From the NCBI GenBank assembly GCA_000004985.1, contig GG738881.1: DNA of 64,000 bases; one strand, written 5' to 3'. The number at the start of each line of letters is the position of its first letter. Positions within the stretch are counted from its first letter, which is position 1. Source of the DNA: Naegleria gruberi (lineage: Eukaryota). The notes under the pieces were generated by a model. The model did not search any database. It was not told the origin of the DNA and saw only the letters and a list, made by a program, of their open reading frames with translations. Shown piece after piece: positions 1 to 56,876 of this stretch. The position numbers and the translations under genes were made by a program.

Positions 1-350
1 CCAAACCCAAACCCAAACCCAAACCCAAACCCAAACCCAAACCCAAACCCAAACCCAAACCCAAACCCAAACCCAAACCCAAACCCAAACCCAAACCCAA
101 ACCCAAACCCAAACCCAAACCCAACCCAAACCCAAACCCAAACCCAAACCCAAACCCAAACCCAAACCCAAACCCAAACCCAAACCCAAACCCAAACCCA
201 AACCCAAACCCAAACCCAAACCCAAACCCAAACCCAAACCCAAACCCAAACCCAAACCCAAACCCAAACCCAAACCCAAACCCAAACCCAAACCCAAACC
301 CAAACCCAAACCCAAACCCAAACCCAAACCCAAACCCAAACCCAAACCCA
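1..350. repeat. Telomeric repeat array (CCCAAA)n, about 58 units; C-rich strand shown, so this is a left chromosome end
   Basis: Near-perfect hexamer repeat from position 1 to about 350. There is one variant unit (cccaac) near 121-126. The array ends abruptly at ...cccaaaccca|gaactaaaaa. Confidence 0.9.
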
Positions 351-4523: not shown

Positions 4524-5645
4524 ATGCAGAAACTCGACATTCATATTCTTCCAGATGAAATAATGGAAGCAATATTGTCCAATCTTCAACTGTATGAAGT
4601 ATTCTTCTGCTTTTCAAGAGTTTCGAAGTATTTTCAACAACTTTCTCATTCAGTCATTCAACATGAATATTACAGCACCATTGTTGACCAATTTAATCAA
4701 AAACCGAGTTCGTTTAATTTCGGAGATTGCATTAAATTCGTCAAATTCAGTTTGAGAAATTCGGTTTATCAATATGCGGTCCTAATTATTCAAAAATACT
4801 TGTCAACCAGAAGTCCAGAATTCAACAATATTCCAGTAATTATGGGAGAAAAAGATTTACAATTTTGGAAACAATCCGAGCAGGATTTTATGTATTTGAA
4901 GGCTTTTTTTGATAATTTTCATGATTTACCAGGTCGTGGTAAGCCTGTTATTGAACCAACTGTTGTAAAAGAAGAAGAAGGATTACTTTCGAATATTTTT
5001 TCCGTATTCGAAACATTATTTGCAATGACAAGTCGAGTAATAGCAAAAAAAACATCTACTTACTCAGATCCTCAACAATCTGTTCACATCATTGGTGAAG
5101 AAGAAAGTGTCTCATCATTTTTCAATTGTGCCTCTTATGATAAAACTCAGAGTTTAACAGTTAGTTTTCCCGATCGTTGTTGGAAGATTGCATATGTTGG
5201 TGATGGGAAATATATGAGGATGTGTTTAACCAAGAATGATTACAATATGGATCAATCATCTTATTTTATCTTGGTGGGAAATCCTTATTCCAGTAATTGT
5301 TTGACAGAATTTGAAATGATGAAGAATGGTATTAAGCAATATTCGAAAGGAGCAGAAGTAATTGTTGTGACTTCAATGAAGGATTTACAAAACGGTCAAC
5401 CAAGATTCATTTCTAATGAACAAGCAAATTGGTTTGCTTATCAACAATTTGGAGGATTGTTCAAGGATATCACAACGACAGAATTGGAAGAACCATATGT
5501 AGTATCTTGTTATTGTTTCTTGATGAGATACTTCCTTGGAAATAAACCCCTTGAACTAGAGAATGAGAATGGATACTATTGGAAAGTGAGGAGTCAGTTT
5601 ATTGTACATGACATTGAGATTGTGGACAGAGTCTTTCGACACTAA
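4524..5645 (+). CDS. F-box-like domain protein (373 aa), single exon
   Basis: ATG at 4524. The N-terminus LPDEIMEAILSNLQLYEVFFCFSRVSKYFQQL fits the F-box pattern (LP.E.L..IL..L....L......VCK.W). TAA stop. Confidence 0.6.
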   Translation: MQKLDIHILPDEIMEAILSNLQLYEVFFCFSRVSKYFQQLSHSVIQHEYYSTIVDQFNQKPSSFNFGDCIKFVKFSLRNSVYQYAVLIIQKYLSTRSPEFNNIPVIMGEKDLQFWKQSEQDFMYLKAFFDNFHDLPGRGKPVIEPTVVKEEEGLLSNIFSVFETLFAMTSRVIAKKTSTYSDPQQSVHIIGEEESVSSFFNCASYDKTQSLTVSFPDRCWKIAYVGDGKYMRMCLTKNDYNMDQSSYFILVGNPYSSNCLTEFEMMKNGIKQYSKGAEVIVVTSMKDLQNGQPRFISNEQANWFAYQQFGGLFKDITTTELEEPYVVSCYCFLMRYFLGNKPLELENENGYYWKVRSQFIVHDIEIVDRVFRH

Positions 5646-5821: not shown

Positions 5822-7144
5822 TTATTTCTTCATCACTGAAAGAGTTTTCACCAAAAATTCTTTTGTACTCTTTTTCAATTTTTCCAGTTCACTGCCATTT
5901 CTTCTCAAATATTTGAAAAGTTTTCCAACTTCTTGTTTTGCACGCTTTTCTCCATCGTTGTGATATTTTGAATTTAATGTTCTAATTTCTACATGTGGTT
6001 TGATACCCATATTATTATATTCCAACTTGGTGGCTCTTGTCTTGCAAAGTGGACATTGATTTAAGGAACTGAAAGGTTTCATACTCATTTCACACTTGAC
6101 AAAATTATTCGAATCTTCAAATTGGGAATCAAATGGAATATCCCTGGTGAGTTGATAGTCTTCTGCCGTTAGAATATCATCCTCATCAGCTGCAATATCT
6201 GTAGAAGAAGGCAATTTAGCACATTGCTCATAAACACAATTCTCACACAAACAACAATGGTAACATGGAACAAATTGATATACAGGTTGATTTTCTAAAC
6301 ACAAGACACATGTTTCACTCTTCAAGTCAGTTGTAGCTCCATAAGAATTAGAAATATTGACCGTTCTTGATGTCCTTGAAGTTGAACTCTGACAAGTGTT
6401 ATTAAATTTAAAAACATGCAAACTTACCAGTCGTTGCTCAATTTCTTCCAAATCACTCTTTAGTTTGGCTTTATGATTCTTCATTTGTGTCAAATTCATA
6501 TTGGCAATGTTTTCGAGACCTGTAACAACTCTTGACAGTTGAGTGGTTTGAAAAGCTTGGCGAAAGAGCTCTATTGTCTCTATTTCTCTTTGTAATGCCC
6601 TTCTTTCTTCCAATCTTTCAGCTTCTAGCTGTGTTATGTCATAAGTCACAAAGTCCACAATATAAGAAATCAAACCAATGATTGAAGACACCTTATAAAT
6701 CAACCAAATCAGATATTTAACGCCACTAAAACTAACATTCCATGAATAGATATAATACATGATCACCAAACAATCAGGAATTCCCAAAAAGTTATGCAAA
6801 ATCACTTGCCAAAGTGACAAATGATTCCAGTAATAAAATGTCAAATTAGGAAAGACATAATAGAATACCATCTTCATATAAGAGATAGAAGATACCCTCT
6901 GCTCCTCTGGAATGTGAAAATCTTCATTTCCAATCCAATTACTTGTTTTTAAATAAAGAAAAACACAGAACAAGGTTAATGGATTGAAAAGTACAGAGCA
7001 AAATCTGATGACAGTGTTGATATTTTGGCGTTCCTGAGGGTGGTATACAGGAGGGATAAGAAATCTAACGATTGCTTTGTACATTTTTTTTAAATGATAG
7101 TTTTTGTGTTGACACTTTGAAAATTTGACAGAATCATTGATCAT
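5822..7144 (-). CDS. Multi-pass membrane protein with coiled coil and C-terminal C3HC4 RING finger (putative membrane E3 ubiquitin ligase), 440 aa
   Basis: ATG at 7144 (minus). Hydrophobic helices in the N-terminal half. RING motif CVLCLENQPVYQFVPCYHCCLCENC. TAA stop. Confidence 0.6.
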   Translation of the reverse strand: MINDSVKFSKCQHKNYHLKKMYKAIVRFLIPPVYHPQERQNINTVIRFCSVLFNPLTLFCVFLYLKTSNWIGNEDFHIPEEQRVSSISYMKMVFYYVFPNLTFYYWNHLSLWQVILHNFLGIPDCLVIMYYIYSWNVSFSGVKYLIWLIYKVSSIIGLISYIVDFVTYDITQLEAERLEERRALQREIETIELFRQAFQTTQLSRVVTGLENIANMNLTQMKNHKAKLKSDLEEIEQRLVSLHVFKFNNTCQSSTSRTSRTVNISNSYGATTDLKSETCVLCLENQPVYQFVPCYHCCLCENCVYEQCAKLPSSTDIAADEDDILTAEDYQLTRDIPFDSQFEDSNNFVKCEMSMKPFSSLNQCPLCKTRATKLEYNNMGIKPHVEIRTLNSKYHNDGEKRAKQEVGKLFKYLRRNGSELEKLKKSTKEFLVKTLSVMKK

Positions 7145-7991
7145 GTCAAGTTTCGATCATGAGTTTTGATTGGATAATATTTTGATCATGAAACTTGTCA
7201 ATTTTTACAATCTAGTTGGCAGAATCAGTTTCTTCGTGTCTCTCGAATGGTTCGTCCACTACAGAATTAACAACAACTGTGGTGAATTCACTTACCTAGT
7301 CAAGGTGTTATTTCATTCTCTGATTGTTGTTCAACCTTTACTCTAGTTCCTTTCTATTACATATTATTGGATGGCAAGCAATTTCCAAGTATTATGATGA
7401 TTCAAGGACAATACTTTTATTAAAGATATAAAACTTGGATGATGTTCCGATATTGTACATTTGTGTATATTAGTGAGAAACCTCCACCATGAATTGAAGA
7501 AAGTAAGGATGAAGATGTTATATGTTGTGAAAATAAATAGTTACTAGAAGAAAGTTTTTGATTTGGTCAAGTAGTGATGGTACATTATCTTGTACCGATT
7601 CCAATAAAGACAAAAATCCTCCAAAATTCACCCCACACATAGTATTGACCATTCTGAACAATCTCCAATTGCTGGTTTTTGTGATGACCAAGTAGATGTG
7701 CCGATTTTGATGAAAAATCGACTTGGAGCCAAATAATTTTAAAGAGTAAACTTGCAGAATACTAATTTAAATACTATTAGAACAACAAATCAACCTGTTC
7801 TAACAACATTTGAAATTTTTCCCAAGTGATGATGATATTAAATTTCTTGATGATTAAAATTTCCAACAATAAAATTACTATTCTACTATATCCAAAGATC
7901 ATGCACATTGAATCAGCAATGATGAAGTGATTATTTTTTTTGTTAGAGAATACTTTTCTTACCATTTGCATTAGAAAGGAAAGATCCTTTT

Positions 7992-17808: not shown

Positions 17809-20800
17809 ATGATGATGACTACAACACCGAATGTTGATATAATGATGGTTGGAAATACACAACAACAACAACAATATTCCACCAATAATCAATCACAGGT
17901 ACATAACTTTATTAACGATCCCAATGATTGGAAATTAAAAGTAGTTTCTGGACAATTTCGTGATGAAGATTTAATTAATAATCAAATTGAGTCAGATGAT
18001 GATGATGGTCTTTATAGTGATCATCAATTAACAATGGATGATGATTCAGATGATGATGCTTTTTTTGGAGGAAGACAACGTAACAGCCAAATTGTCATTA
18101 CTCATGGCAAACATGATTTGGATTCTTCTTCATCAGATGAGGAAGAGGAAGAACATGCCAAATCACCTAAGAAGATGAAATCTTTTAGAATGGGACAAGA
18201 TGAGGAAGAGGAACTTGATACTCCTGCCTTTCAACATGTCAATTCAATTCGTATGAATCATCCCTTCTATCAAAAGTATGGAGATGCTGAGAGTGGAATA
18301 ACAACTGATGCTGCTTCACAACAACCAATTATTCAACAACAATCTATCATTCTATCACCTTCTTCACCTATTGACAGTAAACAACAACAACAATTGAATA
18401 ATAATAATACAAAGAATGATGAACAAGAGAAACAACAAGAATTAACAACAACAACAACAACATCAATTCCAGATTGCTCATCAGACTCATCAGAATCATC
18501 AGGTTTTAATAATGAAGTGGTGTCATCATCACTTAAAGGAAGTGTGGAGCAAACGTCTACATTTGTTCCGACATTGTCCTCTAAACACGATGCAACTATT
18601 CCACAACAGCAACAACAACAATCACTAACACAAAACACAGCAACAGTTCCAACAATAATAACCGAAGTTGTTGAATTTCAACAACCTATCATCACCAACA
18701 ACAACAAACAAACAGAAGAATAACACCACCACTCAATCATCTGATGAGGATCATCACCAATTTGAAATTGTTACCACAACTACCATAGAGGATGCCAATT
18801 CTACAGTACAATACACTACCACCACCGTTCCTTCTTCAACTCCTAATTTATCCAACAACCAAACAATAGCAGCCAATAATCCATACGCTTCTGAGAATGA
18901 CAATAATTATGCACTCCAACAGGCACTCCAGTACAGCACTACTGTTTTTGATGATACCTCAACAGAATATATTGATGATCCTTTTGCAAGGATGGAGTCA
19001 CCTTTTGTTAATAACGGTCCTAAGAGAAGTATTATTGATCCTTCTACAAGAGTACAACCAGCTCAAAAGAAACGTGTTCGTTTTGCAGATAGTGTCACTC
19101 TGTTTCCAATTACTTACATCAATGTAAGTCCGAGAGAGGAAAAGCCAAATAACTTGACTTGGTATCAACAACAACAACAACAACAACCACAACAACAATT
19201 TTCTATTGTCACTACAATTTCTAGTCCAATATCACCAACTCCTTCTTCTTCTTCTACTACTGCCCCAACACCTGGATCAGTAGTACCAAAGAGTAATGGC
19301 ACCACAACAACAGCAACAGTCACAAAAACAACATCAGCAACAAGTAGTAACCCACCAAAGAAGGAAATGAACAATTCTACTCCTCCACAACAGTCAACAA
19401 ACTCAACAAATGCAAAATCTACTGTATCTTCTAATAGTTCTTCAAAAGAAGCAAAAGAAGAGGATACAATTCCAAGTAATCATTTCAATGAGGACAATGA
19501 AAAGGATAATGATGATAATTCTGGAAACCCAAATGATAATTATGAGGATGATGAATTTAGAACCAATGATGGAAAGAGGAGATTTTGGGGTTTGACTGGC
19601 TACCAATATTTGGTATTGTCATCAGCTTGGCTTGGATGGGCATTTGACATTTTTGATGGAGTATTATTCAGTTATGCAGCACCAATTTGCATTCCAAATT
19701 TATTGGGATATCCTGACGATCAAATTACATCAACAGCTGCAAAGGAACAAACAGCTCTCTGGAGTAGTATTTTGAGTACTGTACTATTGTTTGGTTGGGG
19801 ATGTGGTGGAGTTTTTTTCGGCTGGCTGACAGATAAAGTTGGACGATCAAAAACCATGATGATAACAATCATTGTCTATAGTATTGGAACATTTTTAGCT
19901 GCATTTTCGTTCCATATTAGTGTTTTAGTAATACTGAGATTTGTTGCAAGTCTTGGTATTGGAGGAGAGTGGTCTGCAGGTGCAGCCCTCATTTCAGAAA
20001 CTCTTCCTATTGAGAAGAGAGTTATTGGAGGAGTTTTACTCTACACAGCTGCTCCTTTAGGAAGCATGGCATCATTTGCTGTTAATTATCTTATCACAAG
20101 TGTTTTACTTCAAACGACAACTAATCCAATAGTTAATGGCACAATAACAAATTCTACAATGCTCATTACTGATGGACTTATGAGTGGTGATATTAATGCT
20201 CCAGTGGTAACCGGTGGACCTATTCCTCTGTGGTTATCGTGGAGAATTCTTTTTGCTATTGGTGTTATTCCAACCATTGTTGGTATTTTTGTTAGAATTT
20301 GTGTGAAGGAACCTGATGCATGGCTCGAACAAAAGAAGAGAGAAAAGGAAGAAGAGGAAGAGGAAAATAATACATTGGAAAGTAATGAAATTAATGAAAA
20401 CAATGAAACAGAATTACCACAAACACCTCCTCGTAATAGAAATGTTTCTATTGTTTCAGCAAGTCCAGCTGCTTTTCAGAAGAATGAGGATTCCATTTCT
20501 CTCAATACTGAAGATGATTTGAAGGAAATTGATCTAAATGATCAACCTGTAATGCCACCCATTAGAAGCGAGTCAGAATTCTCCAGTACTTCACTTACTC
20601 CTTTAAAGAAAAAGAAGAAGGGATCATCCTATCTTGATCTTTTTGCCAATGCCGATTTGAGAAAGAGAACCATTTCAGCCATTCTCTTTGTTTGTCCTGC
20701 CTTGATTTCATGGTGGTGCATTTCTACGTTTATTCCAATTTTGAGCACTCATCTTGCTTCACCCATTGAGGATGCAACTGAAAGAAAAATCACACAGAAT

Positions 20801-21268
20801 CAATATTCTGTACTAGGAAATATGCTTTTTAATTTTGGAGGTTTAATTGGAACATTGCTTGTCATTCCAATTGCTATGAAATTGGGGAGACTCTGGGTTT
20901 ATAGAATTTACTTCTTCTGTTCTACAATATTCATTATTATTGCTTTTGGAATTCCTGACATGTCACCATATGTTAGATTTTGTTTAATGTTCCCAGTAGG
21001 ACTTTTTGTTTTTGGAGCTTTTGGCAGTTTTACATTCTATTTACCAGAGTTATTCCCATTGGAATTGAGAGGAAGAGGAGCCGGATTTACCTACAATTGT
21101 GGACGTTTTGGTACTGCAGTTTTCCCATTCATTGTTGGTATCATGGTGAGTCAGGGTGTTAATCCTCTCATTGTATTGGCTTGTCTTTCAGTTGCAACAG
21201 CTGCTGGCTTTGTGGTTTCTGTAATTCCAAAGTTTGCAGTTGAAACCAAGAATTTGGTTCTTCACTAA
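17809..21268 (+). CDS. MFS (major facilitator superfamily, SV2/sugar-transporter-like) membrane transporter with a very long Q/N/T/S-rich disordered N-terminal region
   Basis: ORF 18668..21268 carries the 12-TM MFS core (GWAFDIFDGVLFSY...FGWLTDKVGRSKTMM...RFVASLGIGGEWSAGAALISETLP... second half FGAFGSFTFYLPELFPLELRGRGAGFTYNCGRFG). ORF 17809..18723 starts at ATGATGATG, is low-complexity, and overlaps by 56 nt in another frame. See findings. Confidence 0.7.
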
Positions 21269-24170: not shown

Positions 24171-27100
24171 ATGAATGCCTCGGAGCTTTTACTTTGCATC
24201 ATTAAGATGATGATAATCATGATGCTTATTGTTAGTTGCTTGATGGTAGATTGGGGTCATTCCGCACTCGTTGATAAGAAGTTTAAATTAAAGACAGTGT
24301 GTGGTGATTTTAATTATCCTTACTTTTATCGTCCAAAGGGATTGTCATATTATTCGGGTTCTATTTATGTTGCTAATACAGGACAGCATAATATTATTAA
24401 ATGTGATCCTACTAATGGCGCCATTCAAATAGGTAAGTTTTATTTACTAATAATAGTGATTATTTAATATTTACATTATATAAATTTATATATATGAACA
24501 ACAATAATAATAGTGGCTGGAGCATCAGGATATTCTGGATTTGTTGATAATTTAGCACCATTACAATCTTACCTAAATACTCCTAGTGATGTTTGGGTTG
24601 AACAGGACAATGTCTATTACATTGCAGACACCCTTAATAGAAGAATTAGAAAAGTCTCCAATGGAATAATGACAACACTAGCAGGGGATGGAGTTGCAGC
24701 AAGTAACCCTGACTTTATTACACCTGTTCAATTGAACGATCCAAAGAAAATATTTCTTTATGGTGGCAATTTGTACTATGCAGAATATGAAAAGATTAGA
24801 AATATGCATAATATGCAACCAACAAGCATTGAAACCATAGCTGGAAACACATACGGATCTACTATTGGAGTTTCTGCTCTAAGCTCACAAGTTAAGGAGC
24901 CTCAAGGTCTTTATTTCTATTCGGACAATAAGTATTTAATAGCGGATACTGGAAATCATCGTATTTTAAAAGTAGAAAATAGTGTAGTTAGTTTTATTGC
25001 TGGAAGTAGTTCTCAAGGATACTCAACAGGTTATGCCATAGGTTCTCAACTTTCATCACCAAATGGTGTTGTAGCTTTGGGATCTTCAGTAGTATTTACA
25101 GATACTGGAAATCATTGTATTAGAAAGATTAACACAGATGGAACTTTAACTACCATTGCAGGAGTTTGCACTACTTCAGGTTATAACTCAGATCAAGCAG
25201 ATGCCACCAATGCTTGGCTCTCATCACCAAGTGGAATAGTTGAAGTAAATGGTGATTTATACTTTACGGATTCAATGAACGGAATTATTAGAAAGTTGGA
25301 AGCTTATTGTGATACTGGATATGTATCATATGATAATTACCAATGCACATTAGCGACGGTTGTGCCTCAATGTTTTGGAATTAGTGCTTCAGACTCTTCA
25401 GTTTGTTCAGGAAGAGGATCTTGCACAAGTTACAACAATTGTGTCTGTAATTCTACATATTATGGATCTCAATGTAGTTATGATTATTCTTGTGGTGGAT
25501 TGAGTCCAGATTCATCAACAGCATGTAACGGAAAAGGTGTTTGCCAGTCACAAGATAAGTGCCAATGTATTTCTGGTATTGTTGGTAATTTGTGTAATCT
25601 TGAGGCCAATTGTTTTGGAATCTATTCATATACAAGCACGGTTTGCAGTGGTAAGTTTTTCATTGGAAAATTAAGTTAATACTAAATTTAAACTAATAAG
25701 GTAGGGGAACATGTGTGAGCAATGACAAATGCTCGTGTAGTGATGGATATTATGGATCTCAATGTTCTTACAGTTATGCATGTAATGGAATAGCTCCAGA
25801 TTCATCAAATGTTTGTAATAGTCGTGGTGTTTGTACTTTGACTGGTTATTGTTCTTGTTATTCTGGTTTTTCTGGAGGATATTGTGAAAATATTAATCCA
25901 ACTAATTCATTCATGTGTTTTGGATTTTATCCATACGAATTAAATGTTTGTGGAGGTAAGTTGGTTTGATTCCAAATTTGTTGGTTAATATTTCGTTTAT
26001 TAGCAAATGGAAATTGTATTGGCACTAATGTATGCTCATGTAATAAGGGATATTATGGATCTCAATGCTCGTATAATTATGCATGTAATGGAATAGCTCC
26101 AGATTCATCAAACGTTTGTAATAGTCGTGGTTCATGTAATTCGAATGGTACATGTTCATGTGTATCTGGTTATCAGGGATCATACTGTGAATCAGCACAG
26201 TCAACACATGTAGTGAGTTCTGACACTGGCATTTGGATTGGAATTGGGCTGGCTATTGGAGTTTCTGTTCTTTTTCTTGTTGTGATATCCGTTGGGTTGT
26301 TAATTATTGTCATTACCTTGCGATTAAGAAAAAAGAAACATAATGAAGCAAGAAGAATAGATCAACTTAGAAAAGATAATGATGAGCAAGCTAGAATTCA
26401 ATCTAACAAGGAAAAGCCACAAGAGATGATTAACCTTACTATCACTACCAATAGTAATTCATCAGGTGTTAATGCTATAGCTAATACCAGTACTAATCAA
26501 CCATCATCTTCATCTACTAATACTCAGATACAACCATCTTCAACAATGGGATCATACACAAGCTATCTTAATAGTAACAGTAATCAAAACACAGAATTAT
26601 CCTATGCCATTTTGAATCAGGGTGAGGACAACTCTTTTAGACCTCCTCCAACCATTATTAAACAAGCAAGTAAGACGAATGATGGTATGGATATATTCTC
26701 ATCAAAGGATCACACCTATAAGATAATTAAGGTTTTGGGACGAGGAGGATTTGGAACGTGTTATTTGTGTGCAGATGTTGAATCGAATGATTTGATTGCT
26801 GTTAAGGCAATCCCAACAAACTTGAACGACTTTTCATCTATTTTCAGTGAATTCTCCAAATGTTTGGCATTCCAACATCCAAACTTGGTCAGGTCATATG
26901 AATATTTACAAGGAAATGGAATGATGTGTCTTGCAATGAAATTCTACAAGTGTGGAGATTTGGAGCATATTTTCAGAAATGTTGCCAAGAGAAAGCCACC
27001 ATCTGATGAATTATTAATTTCAATCATTAATCAGGTGGGTGAAGGTCTTGATTATTTACATAGAACCCAAAAGGTCCTCCATCGTGATATCAAGCCTAAC

Positions 27101-27517
27101 AATATTATGGTTGATGAATTTGATGAAGATAATTCAAAGATTTCAGTTGCTATTGGAGATTTTGGAGTTTCAAAACAAGCTACTACTGCTCACACTTTTA
27201 CAGGAACAATTTATTATGTTTCACCTGAATTATACGCTGGTTCAAAGGATACTTCATATCCAACTGATATATTTTCATTTGGTGTCACAATGTACTTGAT
27301 CATATGCAACCATTTTAACAATATGAGACAAGGTATTACTCAATTATCAATGGTTGAAGGTTATGATAAGGTTATGGATAAGGTTAGAAAGGAGTTGAAT
27401 GCTACAGGTATCAAAGATGATATTACTGAATTGGTAATGAAAATGTTATCTAAGGAACCTGGAGAAAGACCACTCGCTGAAGAATTAGCCAATTTCTGTA
27501 AGATTAATGTTTGTTAA
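24171..27517 (+). CDS. Receptor-type Ser/Thr protein kinase: signal peptide, NHL repeats, tenascin/EGF-like Cys repeats, TM helix, kinase domain. Four exons: about 24171-24432, 24514-25650, 25701-25955, 26004-27517
   Basis: Introns gtaagt...aataatag (81 nt), gtaagt...ctaataag (50 nt) and gtaagt...tttattag (48 nt), all phase 1. NHL-like blades (YVANTGQHNIIKC, YIADTLNRRIRKV, LIADTGNHRILKV, VFTDTGNHCIRKI, YFTDSMNGIIRKL). Repeated C.C..GYYGSQCSY modules. TM segment IGIGLAIGVSVLFLVVISVGLLIIVITL then RLRKKK. Kinase motifs GRGGFGTCY, AVKAI, HRDIKPNN, DFGVSK, SPE. Confidence 0.75.
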
Positions 27518-27547: not shown

Positions 27548-29476
27548 TTACAAACAACTTGCATTTCTACATAATTGATTGTAAACAGCATTAGCCACAG
27601 CAACACCGGAATTCCAACCAGCTTGATTGGCATATTCAAAGTGAATACCACCATAAATTCTGGATTTACCAGCTTCCTTAGCAGCATCTGACAATTTGTT
27701 AAATGTTCTTGTGTGATATTTGTAACCATCACTTACTACATCAAAGGAGATGTCATCACTTCCCAATACTAAACTCAAAATTCTTGCAGCAGCACCAGAG
27801 AAGGTTGAGTGTCCACTGGTGTATTCAGGGAAAGGTGGAGTTGCCAACAATGGGAACCAATTAAGATTTCTATTTCTATTATTTACAGCTGTCACTGGAC
27901 GAAGTGCATTATAGAAATATTTGTGATCCCAAGAAACAATACCAGCATCAGCAAGAGTACAACCTAACAATTTGAAAATGGCAGATACTTTGAAAATGTC
28001 AGTAATTCCTTGGCTTCTAATAATTGATTGAAGGATGACATTCCAATGTCCTGGTGGAGTGGCAGTTCCTGCACCATCATCCCAGAACCAAGCAATTCTT
28101 CTTTGATCAAAAGTTCTAACACTTGAATCATTTCTACCATACAAGAATACTTCATCATAGGAAGTTTCGAATAAAGGAGTTCCCAATTGTGGAGGTGGAC
28201 CTTGTCTAAAACTTTCAACATTTTGAATTCCAAAAGGTTCAACATTTGGCCATTGAGGCAACAATGGATTTCTGACATAATTTGGAGCATGACTTTGATA
28301 ATCCATTGCTCCATCTCTAAATTGATAATCAACAAATTCTGCACTTCCATCATTATCTCTAGATCTCAAAACTCTGTCAGCTGTCGTCACTGCAGATTTA
28401 CCAATTTTAGTTAATTCTGAAACGTCATATTGTGAACATCCATTACATTGTAAAGCTCTCTTCAATGCAGCATTATAACAATCAATATTATTTGGAAATA
28501 ATTGAGAAAGGACACGATGAGCAGAAAAGGAAATTGTGGTTGCAATGGTTGCGTAGTCACATGCCTTGTTTGAGTTTCTGGATCTTCTGCAGGAGCCAAG
28601 GGCATCGTCTGTGGCTGTGTGAAGAATGGCCATGGCTCTGGATGCAATTGGTGGAGCAACTTTGAAATCTCTGACAGTTGACAGTAAAACATTATTCCAC
28701 TTGACAATGAAATCTTCATTGAAAATGTCTTTTTCAGTGGTAATTGCAGCACATTTTGGAGCAATATCAGTTTGACTGATTGGGAAAGTATGAGAACTGA
28801 CAACACTGACATAATATTGATTAGTGACAGGATTAATTCTAATCAAATTCAAACCTCTAGCCATTCCTTTACCCCAAATATTTGAACTCAATTCACAATC
28901 AACAACCAATGAACCATCTGCTGAAATTCTCATTGGCATTGGACTAGACCAAGTAATTCTAGGAAAGGCAATACTACCATTGACCTTCCAAAAATAGGTA
29001 TAAAACCCAAATGGTAAAATTGAACCTGTGTCCACCCAAGTACCATTTTTACCTCCGTAAGCTCCGTGGACAACAAGTGGTTTAGTAAGCATGATTGCAA
29101 AGGCATCATCATAAACTCCCAAATCTTGTGAACCTGCCAAATTTGGATAACCTCGAACTTTTGCATAGTGAACTACATATTGATCTCCCACAGATGTGAA
29201 AAATTGTGCACCATCTGGCAAACGAGCTCCATTATCAGAAACATCCAAACCATATTGATTTCTATAGAAATTTGTTGCCTTTTCATGAGCATCTGGATAA
29301 CGAGTGATTGGTGCAATGTTTCCTGCTTGAATGCCATCTGCCAAAATTGACAGGTGGAATTGAGCATCGTATTCTTGAGGATTGGTTTCTGTGGTTGGTG
29401 AGTAGGCATTGATTAGAAGAAATGGTGAAAAAATCAATGTAAACACGAGAAGGAGTCGTGTTAGTGGAATTGACAT
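27548..29476 (-). CDS. Secreted vanadium-dependent haloperoxidase / PAP2 acid-phosphatase-superfamily protein (642 aa), intronless
   Basis: Signal peptide MSIPLTRLLLVFTLIFSPFLLINA. C-terminal motifs KYFYNALRP (K....RP), PEYTSGHSTFSGAAA (PSGHS) and SRIYGGIHFEYANQAG (SR...H) match the vanadate/phosphate-binding signature of V-haloperoxidases and PAP2 enzymes. TAA stop. Confidence 0.7.
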   Translation of the reverse strand: MSIPLTRLLLVFTLIFSPFLLINAYSPTTETNPQEYDAQFHLSILADGIQAGNIAPITRYPDAHEKATNFYRNQYGLDVSDNGARLPDGAQFFTSVGDQYVVHYAKVRGYPNLAGSQDLGVYDDAFAIMLTKPLVVHGAYGGKNGTWVDTGSILPFGFYTYFWKVNGSIAFPRITWSSPMPMRISADGSLVVDCELSSNIWGKGMARGLNLIRINPVTNQYYVSVVSSHTFPISQTDIAPKCAAITTEKDIFNEDFIVKWNNVLLSTVRDFKVAPPIASRAMAILHTATDDALGSCRRSRNSNKACDYATIATTISFSAHRVLSQLFPNNIDCYNAALKRALQCNGCSQYDVSELTKIGKSAVTTADRVLRSRDNDGSAEFVDYQFRDGAMDYQSHAPNYVRNPLLPQWPNVEPFGIQNVESFRQGPPPQLGTPLFETSYDEVFLYGRNDSSVRTFDQRRIAWFWDDGAGTATPPGHWNVILQSIIRSQGITDIFKVSAIFKLLGCTLADAGIVSWDHKYFYNALRPVTAVNNRNRNLNWFPLLATPPFPEYTSGHSTFSGAAARILSLVLGSDDISFDVVSDGYKYHTRTFNKLSDAAKEAGKSRIYGGIHFEYANQAGWNSGVAVANAVYNQLCRNASCL

Positions 29477-29936
29477 TTGGCGTTTTTGAGATTGTTTTTT
29501 TTTTGATGATTCTTAGAATGTTGCCGACAGATTATTGAGATTTAAAGGTATTGGATTGTGTGCTTATCTTTCACCTTCCATAAATTTGTTGCATGACAGC
29601 TAGTGACGTTGTCGTGTCGGCAAGTATTTAAAGCAGTTTTGAGCTGGAGATCATCCTTATTCTATCTCATTCCATTTAAACTCAATAATTGCGGTTAGCA
29701 TTAATAACAATCTCCTTCTTGTTAAATCAGTTTCCTTCCAAATATTAAAAATTGGCAACTGACATTATCATTTTTTTAAACCAATCATCATCACTTTCAT
29801 TCCATTAAGGAAAGAGATCCAGTCGGTATCTTTTTCTACCAAAATCCTCTTTCCTGCCACTTGTCATTATTTACATCATTCGAAACCTTTCAAACAACAT
29901 TTTCAAAAAAAAATCCAAATTTCAAATCCACACAAA

Positions 29937-30683
29937 ATGCTAAAACTCTTCCTCACTCTACTTTTAGTAACTTTCCTTTTAAATTTCTCAAACCAAGCTT
30001 GCGATCCTTCAAAATTATTCGATGCTGAATTGAGTTTATTATTTGATGATGCGTTGCCATTCGATTTGATTCCAAAGAGGATGGAATATCCATTGAATAC
30101 TCAACGTTTTACAAATGCCAAGTTGGTTGAAGGTTTACAATTTTTCAAAACCAGATTTGGAATTGACTTGAATGTCAACAGTCAAAAAGAATTCAGATTG
30201 GAAAAGGGAAGTTTTGAAGGTTATAGTGTAGTTGGTGCAGTTACTAAGAAATCAAGATTCTTTGGAAGTCCATTGATTAGAGTTTATGCTGACATGTTGA
30301 CAGTTGTCAGTTTGAATTCCACTCAAATTGATCCATTGACTCAATATCCAATTCCAAAGGATGCTATTGCTCAATTTGGTTACTATTCATTCTATTACAG
30401 AGCTAACAATACTTTATTTACTGAACCTATCAAAGTCACAAGTCAAACTTTCCAAGAAGGTTGGAGAGATGCTCAACAAAACCTTGACCATTCACGTAAT
30501 ATTATCTTTGACTTGTATTCTCCAGAGTGGGGAGTTGGTTCTTCTCAAGGTGTTGTCACAATGCCAATGCATGATTCTACATTAGGTAAAAGTCAAGTGT
30601 CAATGAGAGAATGGTTGAGATTTCCACCTGTTGGAACTGCCAAGAGAGGTGATGTTACCACTTGTCAATCTTGGTTAAATTAA
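29937..30683 (+). CDS. Secreted protein (248 aa) paralogous to the N-terminal non-catalytic domain of the adjacent haloperoxidase-like gene
   Basis: Signal peptide MLKLFLTLLLVTFLLNFSNQA. Shared blocks LQFFKTRFGIDLNV vs ATNFYRNQYGLDVS and FGYYSFYYRANNT vs FGFYTYFWKVNGS. Divergently transcribed from a shared 460-bp intergenic region. Confidence 0.55.
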   Translation: MLKLFLTLLLVTFLLNFSNQACDPSKLFDAELSLLFDDALPFDLIPKRMEYPLNTQRFTNAKLVEGLQFFKTRFGIDLNVNSQKEFRLEKGSFEGYSVVGAVTKKSRFFGSPLIRVYADMLTVVSLNSTQIDPLTQYPIPKDAIAQFGYYSFYYRANNTLFTEPIKVTSQTFQEGWRDAQQNLDHSRNIIFDLYSPEWGVGSSQGVVTMPMHDSTLGKSQVSMREWLRFPPVGTAKRGDVTTCQSWLN

Positions 30684-31622: not shown

Positions 31623-32811
31623 TTAATAAACAAAGGCAGCAGAAGGAACAGTGTTGATACCACATCTTCCAACTCCTTTGACAATTCTAAAGTATCCATC
31701 TTCTCCAAAGTCATATCCCCAACTGGTTAAGAAATTCATAAAGTTTCAATAAATTATTCTCAAAACTAAACTTACCTATTCTTAACAATCCAATAAGGTT
31801 GTGGCTTACCAAACCAGAAAGTTTCAAGACCATAACCAACAATTAAAACACCATGGTCCAATTGAGTTGGATCACACCAAGCAGGATCAGCAATTCCATT
31901 ATTATAATTTTGTAAAAAGTCAGCATTCAAAGCAACAGCAATTGGTCCATTTTCAGCCAACCAATTAGCCATTTCAGTTTCATTAGTCGACAACATGGTC
32001 CAATTAGACAATTTAGCAACAAAATTAGCTGGTTTCACTTCACACTTGTATCTTTCAGCATAGTAAGGATAATCCTTTTCAGTGACAACTCCTCCTGCCT
32101 TCATCAAGTATTGATAGGCCGACCATTGCAATCCTCCATTACATCCATCATCACATGATTGTTGATTTTCAAAAGTTACACAATTATTATCACAATCGAC
32201 AAGTTGTTGCTCTGAGAAGGAAACGAGTTGCTTGTGTTTAATGGCATAGGAACCTTCAATGGATCCAATGGCAGAAAATGCCCAACAAGATCCGCATTGA
32301 CCTTGGTCTTTGACACCAGTGATAGCTCCATGATTTCTCCAATCATAATGCTGTAAATTTCAAAATTTCAATTCATTACAAAACAATTTCACATTTTACA
32401 AAAATTGTAAACTTTTCAACTTACATCAGGAGCAGGTTTGGCATAACTATTAGACACCATCTTATTAGAATCCATTCTCATCATCTTTTGAATCTCCTTT
32501 GGTGTCTTCTTTTCCATCAAATAAAACTTTCTAAACTCGTCACTTGTCAAATCAGAAAACTTTGTAATGCCATAATTATTATTTCCTTCTCTGATATTCA
32601 TTCTACGACTAGTTTCGATATTTTCTCTAAAAACCTTCAAACGATATTCATATTCTTCTGGTCCTTTGTAAAATCTTTGGAATTTACGAGTAAAATCAAG
32701 GAAATGATCTCTGACAGCTGTTTCAGAAAGTGGTTGATAGGTTTCTTGATCAAAAGCAAGAATACCACATGCTAAAATCACGAGGAATGTCAAGGTGTAA
32801 AGTAATTTCAT
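31623..32811 (-). CDS. Cathepsin L-like papain-family cysteine protease (pre-pro-enzyme), three exons: about 32425-32811, 31776-32350, 31623-31722
   Basis: Signal peptide plus I29 propeptide (ERFNIN-like: KVFRENIETSRRMN). Catalytic Cys block (QGQCGSCWAFS), His (HGVLIVGYG) and Asn (NSWGYDFGEDGYFRI) regions. Introns of about 74 and about 53 nt (gtaagt..cag). TAA stop. Confidence 0.8.
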
Positions 32812-56615: not shown

Positions 56616-56645
56616 AAACTTGATATTTCTGTGATTTTAAAAAGG

Positions 56646-56734
56646 TAGGGTGGTACGTGGATCGAACACGTGACCATCGGATATCTGCTGCAAATTACAT
56701 TGCAATCCGGTGCTCTACCGCTGAGCTAACCACC
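56646..56734 (-). tRNA. tRNA-Cys (GCA) with an intron of about 17 nt in the anticodon loop
   Basis: Minus-strand sequence GGGTGGT-TA-GCTC-AGCGGT-AGAGC-A-CCGGA-TT-GCA-A-[intron about TGTAATTTGCAGCAGAT]-..-TCCGA-TGGTC-ACGTG-TTCGATC-CACGT-ACCACCC-T. Perfect 7-bp acceptor stem, canonical D and T arms, U73 discriminator typical of tRNA-Cys. The intron contains TGCA complementary to the anticodon. Confidence 0.65.
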
Positions 56735-56876
56735 CCTTCGATCATTACTTTTAAATATTCATTTCTATAGGAACAATATCCTTAATCAACTTTTGTTTAT
56801 AATTGTAATATTTTATTTAATTGAATAGTTTAGTTAGAAACAATTTAATATGTGAGATTTTCAAGTAGTGGTGTTG

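What the first reader, a model, noticed from the sequence alone, without database searches (positions are those of the whole stretch)
27548..30683. Divergent gene pair: an intronless secreted vanadium-haloperoxidase/PAP2-like enzyme and a stand-alone secreted paralog of its N-terminal domain
The 642-aa minus-strand protein has the three signature motifs of the V-haloperoxidase/acid-phosphatase superfamily (K..RP, PSGHS, SR...H) behind a roughly 400-aa N-terminal domain. The 248-aa plus-strand protein starts 460 bp away and aligns to that N-terminal domain only (FGYYSFYYRANNT vs FGFYTYFWKVNGS, FFKTRFGIDLN vs FYRNQYGLDVS). Both have signal peptides. Both are intronless in a genome where most neighbours are spliced. 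This is consistent with a horizontally acquired bacterial/algal/fungal gene followed by partial duplication, or with a two-protein secreted system sharing a substrate-binding module. Halogenating enzymes are rare in heterotrophic protists.
Basis: partly seen in the sequence, partly recalled or inferred. Interest (0 to 1): 0.65.

Follow-up and report, generated by a model that had tools for sequence, protein, structure and literature searches.

The report
Naegleria haloperoxidase fused to beta-barrel, plus partner
In the amoeba Naegleria gruberi, a secreted enzyme of bacterial vanadium-haloperoxidase type carries an extra N-terminal beta-barrel from an uncharacterised protein family, and a free-standing relative of that barrel is encoded head-to-head next to it; this pairing is kept across Naegleria species, but no function has been tested.

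Summary
Both uninterrupted ORFs exist at the stated coordinates. They are exact RefSeq proteins of Naegleria gruberi (642 aa, "PAP2_haloperoxidase domain-containing protein"; 248 aa, "predicted protein").

Residues 246-642 of the long protein are a complete bacterial-type vanadium haloperoxidase (VHPO) catalytic domain. All seven vanadate-site residues are present. Every significant PDB match is a VHPO, led by the Zobellia iodoperoxidase; no phosphatase matches.

The head-to-head pair is conserved and intronless in five Naegleria-type loci. The short protein is not a recent partial duplicate of the N-domain, because each has closer outside relatives. None of 80 bacterial VHPO loci has a barrel gene nearby.

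This is a new variant of a known enzyme kind, and its function is untested.

The parts
27548..29476 (-). Long gene: single-exon CDS of 642 aa plus stop codon (XP_002674918.1)
   Evidence: ORF list. Exact-sequence look-up.
29405..29476 (-). Predicted signal peptide of the long protein, residues 1-24 (MSIPLTRLLLVFTLIFSPFLLINA|YSP)
   Evidence: Hydrophobic core at residues 11-22, Kyte-Doolittle 2.49. The cleavage site is inferred by the -3/-1 rule, not computed.
28742..29404 (-). N-terminal beta-barrel module, residues 25-245; member of an uncharacterised secreted-protein family
29042..29068 (-). Family signature loop H137-G-A-Y-G-G-K-N-G145 (HGxYGGxxG), present in the long-form barrel and absent from the short partner
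   Evidence: Alignments A4 and A7. Remote relatives carry the same loop.
27551..28741 (-). VHPO-type catalytic domain, residues 246-642 (both helical bundles)
   Evidence: End-to-end match to bacterial homologues. Profile matches to 4CIT residues 57-449 and 1IDQ residues 17-420.
27896..27922 (-). Motif 1: K519-x6-R526-P527 (preceded by W516-D517-H518)
   Evidence: Invariant in 91/91 sequences. Aligned to the CWDEKYRSNLIRP segment of VIPO1.
27806..27817 (-). Motif 2: S554-G555-H556-S557 (context PPFPEYTSGHS, identical to Zobellia VIPO1)
27641..27664 (-). Motif 3: S605-R606-IYGGI-H612. H612 is the predicted vanadate-binding histidine.
   Evidence: Conserved in 90/91 sequences. Aligned to the SRMYGGIH segment of VIPO1.
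29477..29936 (.). 460-bp divergent intergenic region, a presumed shared bidirectional promoter
   Evidence: Spacers of about 440-580 bp occur in four other loci. No alignable conserved block was found.
29937..30683 (+). Short gene: single-exon CDS of 248 aa plus stop codon; stand-alone barrel-family protein
   Evidence: AF2 model with pLDDT 73.8.
29937..29999 (+). Predicted signal peptide of the short protein, residues 1-21 (MLKLFLTLLLVTFLLNFSNQA|CDP)
   Evidence: Hydrophobic core at residues 4-15, Kyte-Doolittle 2.92. The cleavage site is inferred by eye.

Best explanation
**What it is.** The long gene encodes a secreted two-module protein.
- Its C-terminal 397 residues are a vanadium-haloperoxidase-type enzyme. 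An ancestor of Naegleria acquired it from bacteria long ago.
- Its N-terminal ~220 residues are an eight-stranded beta-barrel from a separate, uncharacterised family of secreted proteins. This barrel became fused to the enzyme.
- A second, more diverged member of the barrel family is encoded head-to-head 460 bp away. It is probably co-regulated from the shared spacer.

**Inferred mechanism.** Vanadate is bound at H612 and held by K519, R526, S554, G555 and R606. It reacts with H2O2, with H556 as acid/base, and oxidises a halide to a hypohalous species outside the cell. Iodide or bromide is most likely, given the closest characterised relative. The barrel module(s) most likely bind a small hydrophobic or phenolic molecule, or position the enzyme, so that oxidation or halogenation is targeted.

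**Shown.** Domain architecture, homologies, active-site conservation, bacterial affinity and conservation of the gene pair.

**Inferred.** Secretion, vanadium dependence, halide oxidation, co-regulation, and any role of the barrels.
For: **Catalytic domain.**
- It matches bacterial proteins end to end (HMM positions 4-390).
- All 18 PDB matches at E <= 0.01 with the family profile are vanadium haloperoxidases: VIPO1 4CIT at 2e-67, C. inaequalis VCPO at 2e-34, then NapH1, NapH3 and algal VBPOs. No phosphatase appears.
- K519, R526, S554, G555, H556, R606 and H612 are invariant. The VIPO1 second-shell residues W, D and F are also present, as W516, D517 and F549.
- The last Asp of the phosphatase motif SRx5Hx3D is replaced by A616 (read directly from the sequence).

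**Origin.**
- At least 594 bacterial loci are related at 33-42% identity, in Thermoanaerobaculia, Planctomycetota, Cyanobacteria and Verrucomicrobiota.
- The nine Naegleria-type sequences form one clade in 200/200 bootstraps, and all carry the barrel.
- Codon GC3 equals that of neighbouring genes, so the gene is fully ameliorated.

**Barrel.**
- hhalign gives E 4.7e-11 between the N-domain and the short family.
- An exhaustive profile search finds 123 representative relatives, mostly about 250 aa with signal peptides.

**Pairing.** The divergent, intronless pair occurs in the window, in N. lovaniensis, in GCA_006365135.1 and in two metagenome contigs.

**Secretion.** Signal-peptide-like N-termini, invariant cysteines, conserved N-x-S/T sequons and no further TM-like segment.
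Against: - No activity, metal or expression data exist. No paper on these genes was found.
- VHPOs and PAP2 acid phosphatases share the same active-site residues, so sequence cannot prove halide oxidation.
- In hmmscan, only Pfam PAP2 passes its gathering score for this protein. VCPO_N and VCPO_2nd are sub-threshold.
- Foldseek gives no hit at E <= 0.001, and there is no Pfam or PDB sequence match.
- One short paralogue (P0122) is not next to a long gene.
- The intergenic regions share no alignable element.
- The donor lineage is unresolved.
Confidence: 0.6

Rival explanations
1. The long protein is a secreted acid phosphatase (PAP2 chemistry) used for phosphate scavenging, not a haloperoxidase. 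The barrels are accessory binding modules.
For: - PAP2 is the only Pfam family above its gathering score.
- The Lys/Arg/Ser-Gly-His/Arg/His site is common to both enzyme classes (established knowledge: Hemrika et al. 1997; residue list via the title cited in PMC10427571).
- Many database homologues are labelled 'phosphatase PAP2 family protein'.
Against: - No phosphatase structure matches the family profile at E <= 0.01, whereas 18 VHPO structures do.
- The domain has the full two-bundle VHPO length and aligns over both bundles of VCPO and VIPO1.
- The final Asp of the phosphatase motif is absent (A616).
- The second-shell residues match VIPO1.
Confidence: 0.2
2. The barrels do not handle a substrate. 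They are anchoring or oligomerisation modules that hold the enzyme on the cell surface, cyst wall or prey. The short protein would be a structural partner or competitor for the same site.
For: - Bacterial homologues carry varied non-catalytic appendages: RTX repeats, malectin, dockerin and FG-GAP/VCBS.
- The residues conserved across the barrel family are mostly glycines, so they look structural.
- AOC and dirigent barrels are oligomeric; for example, the dirigent protein is a trimer (PMC4340379).
Against: - The best structural matches are small-molecule-binding or catalytic barrels.
- No carbohydrate-binding or wall-binding family is detected.
Confidence: 0.3
3. This is the first reader's scenario: the 248-aa gene arose by partial duplication of the 5' part of the fusion gene within Naegleria.
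For: The two genes are adjacent and homologous.
Against: - Long N-domains and short proteins never form an exclusive clade (0/200 bootstraps).
- P0129 is closer to the long form and P0130 is closer to the short form.
- Identity between the two is only about 20%, while each class is 54-92% conserved internally.
- The short form lacks the HGxYGGxxG loop that the long form shares with distant relatives.
- Caveat: the NJ tree rests on about 20% identity and is noisy.
Confidence: 0.1
4. Bacterial contamination or an assembly artefact rather than a Naegleria gene.
For: All close relatives of the catalytic domain outside Naegleria are bacterial.
Against: - The gene sits inside a 380-kb scaffold between a eukaryotic kinase and a spliced cathepsin gene.
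- Its GC3 of 0.23 equals that of its neighbours.
- Orthologous pairs occur in N. lovaniensis and other assemblies.
- The N-terminal fusion is absent from bacteria.
Confidence: 0.01

Closest known systems
Zobellia galactanivorans vanadium iodoperoxidase VIPO1 (PDB 4CIT/4USZ)
   Same: It is the best solved relative: phmmer E 9e-32, and profile E 2e-67 covering chain residues 57-449. The PPFPEYTSGHS segment is identical, as are the W-D-x-K...R-P and SR..YGGIH motifs. It has the same monomer-sized two-bundle domain.
   Different: VIPO1 is bacterial and has no N-terminal barrel or partner gene. The Naegleria domain lacks the short insertion around VIPO1 'CNPYVSVTRGHLMFATKK'. Halide specificity is not inferable from sequence.
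Curvularia inaequalis vanadium chloroperoxidase (PDB 1IDQ/1VNC)
   Same: The profile match at E 2.6e-34 spans both helical bundles, chain residues 17-420. K353, R360, S402, G403 and H404 are aligned with K519, R526, S554, G555 and H556. R490 and H496 are equated with R606 and H612 by motif, not by that alignment.
   Different: It is much more distant, fungal and 609 aa long, and has no barrel module.
Streptomyces NapH1/NapH3 and other site-selective bacterial VHPOs (PDB 3W35, 8CXL, 9PTR, 9L8X)
   Same: They belong to the same superfamily (E 1e-13 to 1e-21). They show that VHPOs can perform substrate-directed halogenation or cyclisation.
   Different: They match only over the C-terminal bundle. 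They achieve selectivity within the catalytic domain, not with a fused barrel.
PAP2 acid and lipid phosphatases
   Same: They share the KX6RP and SGH motifs. Pfam PAP2 matches at E 4e-8, above its gathering score.
   Different: None is found by the profile in the PDB. The protein has no membrane helices. It has an extra N-terminal helical bundle, and the terminal Asp of motif 3 is absent.
Allene-oxide-cyclase-like barrels: plant dirigent proteins (5LAL, 8TH2, 7R5Z), AOC (1Z8K), beta-barrel Diels-Alderases (Cyc15 8OF7, Tsn15 6NNW, PyrI4 7DVK, AbnU 7DVI, PloI4 7X80), pyocyanin demethylase (5K21)
   Different: Identity is 3-13%. There is no Pfam hit to the Dirigent or AOC families. Foldseek is not significant. 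The Naegleria family has an additional N-terminal strand and helix and an HGxYGGxxG loop. Homology is not established.
Bacterial VHPO homologues with accessory modules (RTX, malectin, dockerin, FG-GAP/VCBS)
   Same: The catalytic domain is the same, at 36-44% identity. They follow the same principle of one secreted enzyme plus a non-catalytic module.
   Different: Their modules are mostly C-terminal and of other families. None of 80 bacterial loci has a barrel-family gene within 3 kb.

Membership tests
Vanadium-dependent haloperoxidase (VHPO) | Vanadate-site residues equivalent to C. inaequalis K353, R360, S402, G403, H404, R490 and H496 | tested here: met
   K519, R526, S554, G555, H556, R606 and H612 are present and invariant in 90-91 of 91 homologues. 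They are aligned to VIPO1 and VCPO. The residue list comes from the mutagenesis paper title cited in PMC10427571.
Vanadium-dependent haloperoxidase (VHPO) | Two helical bundles (N-terminal bundle plus PAP2-like bundle) rather than the single bundle of phosphatases | tested here: met
   Tested by sequence only. The profile aligns over 4CIT residues 57-449 and 1IDQ residues 17-420, and the match to bacterial homologues is end to end. No 3D model of this domain was made.
Vanadium-dependent haloperoxidase (VHPO) | Closer to characterised VHPOs than to phosphatases | tested here: met
   All 18 PDB matches at E <= 0.01 are VHPOs and none is a phosphatase.
Vanadium-dependent haloperoxidase (VHPO) | Pfam VCPO_N / VCPO_2nd above gathering score | tested here: inconclusive
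   VCPO_N scores 21 bits against a cut-off of 29.3, and VCPO_2nd scores 14.5 against 27, in hmmscan of the window protein. Precomputed Pfam lists PF22778 for the Naegleria and bacterial homologues.
Vanadium-dependent haloperoxidase (VHPO) | Vanadate-dependent oxidation of halide by H2O2 | not testable with these tools
   Requires enzymology.
PAP2 acid/lipid phosphatase | Motifs KX6RP, PSGH and SRX5HX3D (motif definition recalled from Stukey & Carman 1997) | tested here: not met
   The first two motifs and SRX5H are present, but the final Asp is A616 (sequence). N617 is conserved instead, in 81/91 sequences.
PAP2 acid/lipid phosphatase | Integral-membrane six-helix core (lipid phosphate phosphatases) | tested here: not met
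   No TM-like segment after the signal peptide; the maximum 19-aa Kyte-Doolittle value is 1.53.
Dirigent / allene-oxide-cyclase-like barrel | Eight-stranded antiparallel beta-barrel fold | tested here: met
Dirigent / allene-oxide-cyclase-like barrel | Detectable sequence or profile homology to the Dirigent or AOC families | tested here: not met
   No Pfam family at E <= 1 in 70 members. No PDB sequence relative. Foldseek finds nothing at E <= 0.001.
Dirigent / allene-oxide-cyclase-like barrel | Ligand pocket inside the barrel, and oligomeric assembly | not testable with these tools

The most novel reading that the evidence does not exclude
The fused barrel and its free partner act like dirigent or cyclase proteins for the haloperoxidase. 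They would bind a hydrophobic or phenolic substrate, or a reactive halogenated or radical intermediate, and so dictate where and how the enzyme's diffusible oxidant reacts, possibly as a hetero-oligomer of long and short proteins. That would be the first case of an oxidant-generating enzyme covalently joined to a dirigent-like module. It would also be an extracellular, selective halogenation or cross-linking system in a heterotrophic amoeba, for example for cyst-wall hardening or for modifying bacterial signals or toxins.
Probability: 0.15. Interest if true: 0.8.

Novelty: new variant of a known kind. Interest (0 to 1): 0.5.

Why it matters
**For the enzyme.** VHPOs are known from algae, fungi and bacteria. 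A conserved, secreted VHPO-type enzyme in a free-living bacterivorous amoeboflagellate, acquired from bacteria and then remodelled by fusion, extends their range. It also offers a testable example of how a eukaryote domesticates a bacterial oxidative enzyme.

**For the barrel family.** The fused module defines an unannotated family of secreted proteins, with at least 123 clusters at 50% identity in amoebae, other eukaryotes and bacteria. Its first functional clue is this physical and genomic link to a haloperoxidase.

**If the barrels steer the chemistry.** The system would be useful for biocatalysis (selective halogenation). It would also bear on Naegleria biology: cyst wall, predation and defence.

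Tried and rejected
- **Combined alignment A6.** A 118-sequence MAFFT alignment of long, short, remote and bacterial proteins placed the short family against the catalytic domain. It was discarded, and the full-length structure prediction was abandoned for an N-domain-only prediction.
- **Third word-indexed homology search.** The search with family profile A5 returned only known members because the candidate cap saturated.
- **AlphaFold-database fold search.** The library was not installed.
- **First NJ/bootstrap script.** It timed out and was rewritten with numpy.
- **Donor lineage.** With VIPO1 as outgroup, the Naegleria clade falls outside all 77 bacterial sequences. This is probably a long-branch effect, so no donor is named.
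- **Intergenic alignment.** Aligning the spacers of five loci showed no conserved block.
- **NCBIfam.** No hit for either protein.
- **Genomic neighbours of remote barrel relatives.** P0133 lies in a eukaryote-like contig, P0136 in a clustered set of copies, P0140 in a bacterial contig next to a hydrolase and a glutaredoxin, and P0130 on a GC-rich short contig. None has a VHPO neighbour, and none gives a functional clue.
- **AQ-brominating VHPO subfamily** (PMC11312541). Considered as the nearest functional analogue, but its members are mainly gammaproteobacterial. The related PDB entries are far weaker matches than VIPO1.
- **Paralogous loci in N. gruberi.** Look-ups for P0001 and P0008 failed. 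Adjacency of P0001 and P0120 is therefore inferred only from their shared scaffold length.
Full report
**1. What is in the sequence.**
The window is AT-rich (33% GC). It contains an uninterrupted 642-aa ORF on the minus strand (27548..29476) and an uninterrupted 248-aa ORF on the plus strand (29937..30683). Their ATG codons face each other across 460 bp.

The 248-aa protein is 100% identical to a 'predicted protein' of Naegleria gruberi on a 379,849-bp scaffold. The 642-aa protein is exactly XP_002674918.1/EFC42174.1, 'PAP2_haloperoxidase domain-containing protein', on the same scaffold. So the organism is N. gruberi, and both gene models are already in RefSeq as single exons. No paper discussing them was found.

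**2. The catalytic part.**
- *Pfam.* PAP2 matches residues 503-634 (E 4e-8, above the gathering score). Only sub-threshold hits are found to VCPO_N (residues 247-301) and VCPO_2nd.
- *Homologues.* The homology search returns eight full-length Naegleria-type proteins (53-87% identity). It then returns about 80 bacterial proteins at 35-43% identity that cover only the C-terminal ~60% of the query.
- *Domain boundary.* An HMM of residues 246-642 matches those bacterial proteins from HMM position ~4 to ~390, starting right after their signal peptides. The 397-residue block is therefore one complete bacterial-type domain.
- *Solved structures.* With the single sequence, the best solved relative is the Zobellia galactanivorans vanadium iodoperoxidase 4CIT (E 9e-32), followed by Curvularia VCPO. 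With a family profile, all 18 PDB matches at E <= 0.01 are vanadium haloperoxidases: 4CIT at 2e-67 over residues 57-449, VCPO at 2.6e-34 over residues 17-420, then NapH1, NapH3 and algal bromoperoxidases. No phosphatase appears.
- *Active site.* K519, R526, P527, S554, G555, H556, S605, R606 and H612 are invariant in 90-91 of 91 sequences. The stretch PPFPEYTSGHS is identical to VIPO1, and W516-D517 matches VIPO1 W-D. The terminal Asp of the phosphatase motif SRX5HX3D is A616.
- *Conclusion.* By every sequence criterion available, this is a VHPO-type domain. Whether it oxidises halide cannot be shown here.

**3. Origin of the catalytic part.**
- A scan of one genome per bacterial and archaeal species found at least 594 related loci. 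The best are 33-42% identical and come from Thermoanaerobaculia/Acidobacteriota, Planctomycetota, filamentous Cyanobacteria and Verrucomicrobiota.
- Among named database hits, Naegleria is the only eukaryote.
- The nine Naegleria-type catalytic domains form one clade in 200/200 NJ bootstraps, on a long stem. Their position relative to the bacteria is unresolved.
- GC3 of the gene (0.23) is the same as that of neighbouring genes.
- The neighbours are ordinary eukaryotic genes: a kinase, a spliced cathepsin L, an RGS protein, a WD40 protein and an MFS transporter.
- This fits an old bacterium-to-Naegleria transfer. It does not fit contamination.

**4. The N-terminal module and the 248-aa protein.**
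- *Homology.* BLASTP between the two proteins gives E 8e-4. Profiles built from the nine long N-termini and the nine short proteins match with hhalign probability 97.2% and E 4.7e-11 over 162 columns. The control, short family against catalytic domain, gives probability 0.2%. A joint alignment shares invariant D, Y, G, Y, N and L residues and the G-x-G-x3-G motif.
- *Wider family.* An exhaustive HMMER search of 1.84 billion representatives with this joint profile found 123 proteins at E <= 1e-3. Nearly all are 200-300 aa with signal-peptide-like N-termini.
- *Taxonomic spread.* Members include EukProt transcriptome entries, including a domain within a 1178-aa protein of the amoebozoan Flabellula baltica. 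They also include a protein in a dense bacterial gene neighbourhood and one on a eukaryote-like 453-kb contig.
- *Annotation status.* None of 70 members hits any Pfam family, and there is no PDB sequence relative.
- *Uniqueness of the fusion.* Among the 123 representatives, only the Naegleria long form is fused to a VHPO. None of 80 bacterial VHPO loci has a barrel-family gene within 3 kb.

**5. Fold of the module.**
- AlphaFold2 on the 248-aa protein with 18 sequences gave pLDDT 73.8.
- On residues 25-246 of the long protein with 94 sequences it gave pLDDT 87.7 and pTM 0.84.
- Both models show an N-terminal strand, one helix, and a barrel of about eight antiparallel strands.
  - pyocyanin demethylase;
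  - the AOC-barrel-like LucK;
- The resemblance is therefore at fold level. It is suggestive of a small-molecule-binding barrel, but it is not evidence of homology.

**6. Relationship between long-form barrel and short protein.**
In an NJ tree of 94 family members, the long N-domains (181/200 bootstraps) and the short proteins (196/200) are each monophyletic. They never form an exclusive pair (0/200). P0129 groups with the long form and P0130 with the short form.

The long form keeps the family-wide loop HGxYGGxxG (H137-G145). The short form has a deletion there. Both therefore probably descend from older stand-alone genes. One of them fused to the enzyme. This is more likely than the short gene being a recent partial copy. 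The tree rests on about 20% identity and is only indicative.

**7. Conservation of the arrangement.**
The head-to-head, intronless pair occurs in four other loci as well as the window:

| Locus | Short gene | Long gene | Spacer |
|---|---|---|---|
| N. lovaniensis (locus tags C9374_007299 / C9374_007298) | 262 aa (-), 4762-5550 | 649 aa (+), 6001-7950 | 450 bp |
| Assembly GCA_006365135.1 | 251 aa | 631 aa | 438 bp |
| Metagenome contig L088 | 240 aa | 643 aa | ~580 bp |
| Metagenome contig L090 | 250 aa | long gene cut by the contig end | ~540 bp |

- N. gruberi has a second long/short set (87% and 91% identical) on another scaffold, and a third long paralogue without a known partner.
- One extra short paralogue (P0122) lies beside a RecQ helicase instead.
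- The spacers are not alignable.
- The pairing has thus survived divergence down to 54-60% protein identity. This argues for functional or regulatory coupling. Co-expression itself is untested.

**8. Secretion.**
This is an inference from sequence; no predictor was available.
- Both proteins start with hydrophobic cores followed by small-residue cleavage motifs, and neither has another TM-like segment.
- The long family has six invariant cysteines. The short family has two, C22 and C243.
- An N-x-S/T sequon is conserved at the same alignment column in both proteins, N166 in the long form and N157 in the short form.

**9. Mechanism proposed.**
- *Shown.* A VHPO-type active site, a fused barrel, and a conserved partner gene.
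- *Inferred from family knowledge.* Vanadate is bound to H612, peroxide is activated, and halide is oxidised outside the cell.
- *Speculative.* The barrels bind a substrate or intermediate, or tether the enzyme. The bacterial homologues' own diverse appendages (RTX, malectin, dockerin) show that this enzyme family commonly recruits non-catalytic modules.

**10. Verdict.**
The catalytic enzyme is a new eukaryotic member of a known family and is already labelled as such in RefSeq. The fused barrel, its unannotated family and the conserved divergent partner are new. Novelty class: new variant of a known kind. Interest is moderate (0.5). It would be higher if the barrels prove to direct the chemistry.

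Noticed in passing
window 1-350 (and the N run from ~1046): There are 58.5 tandem copies of CCAAAC, which reads (TTTGGG)n on the other strand, at the very left end of the window. AT-rich sequence and an assembly gap follow. This looks like a telomere-type repeat at a scaffold end, so the gene pair lies about 27 kb from a chromosome end. The N. lovaniensis orthologous pair is also about 30 kb from the end of its 1.08-Mb contig.
   Followed up: partly
window 31772-32811 (-): A cathepsin-L-like cysteine protease gene lies immediately downstream of the short gene. It is split into at least two ORFs, an I29 propeptide and Peptidase_C1 positions 72-188, so it contains intron(s). The kinase upstream (26213-27517, +) is a single ORF with an N-terminal TM-like segment.
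   Followed up: partly
window 56644-56736 (-): tRNA-Ile(AAT) predicted at 93 nt, long enough to suggest an intron.
   Followed up: no
window 18668-21268 (+); L001 1448-4544 (-): An MFS/sugar-transporter gene lies near the pair in both species. In N. gruberi it is about 6 kb from the long gene. In N. lovaniensis it is directly next to the short gene. This indicates rearranged synteny of the region.
   Followed up: no
L086 5238-5987 and 7653-8441: In one Naegleria-like metagenome contig, an extra short-family paralogue (P0122) sits beside a RecQ-type helicase rather than a VHPO gene. A separate 262-aa PAP2-family gene lies about 1.7 kb away.
   Followed up: no
L005 1187-1966 (+), 2193-2924 (-), 3664-3903 (+): Two full copies and one fragment of the barrel family are clustered on one 5.5-kb metagenome contig of an unidentified organism.
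   Followed up: no
proteins P0131, P0134, P0135, P0143, P0153, P0169, P0191: A subgroup of barrel-family members is unusually methionine-rich, at 6-12% Met with runs such as MMMMM. In the tree it groups nearer the long-form N-domain.
   Followed up: no
protein P0177 (Flabellula baltica, 1178 aa), residues 729-910: The barrel-family domain also occurs inside a large amoebozoan protein that has a weak beta-helix match. The family is therefore not restricted to stand-alone proteins or to Heterolobosea.
   Followed up: no
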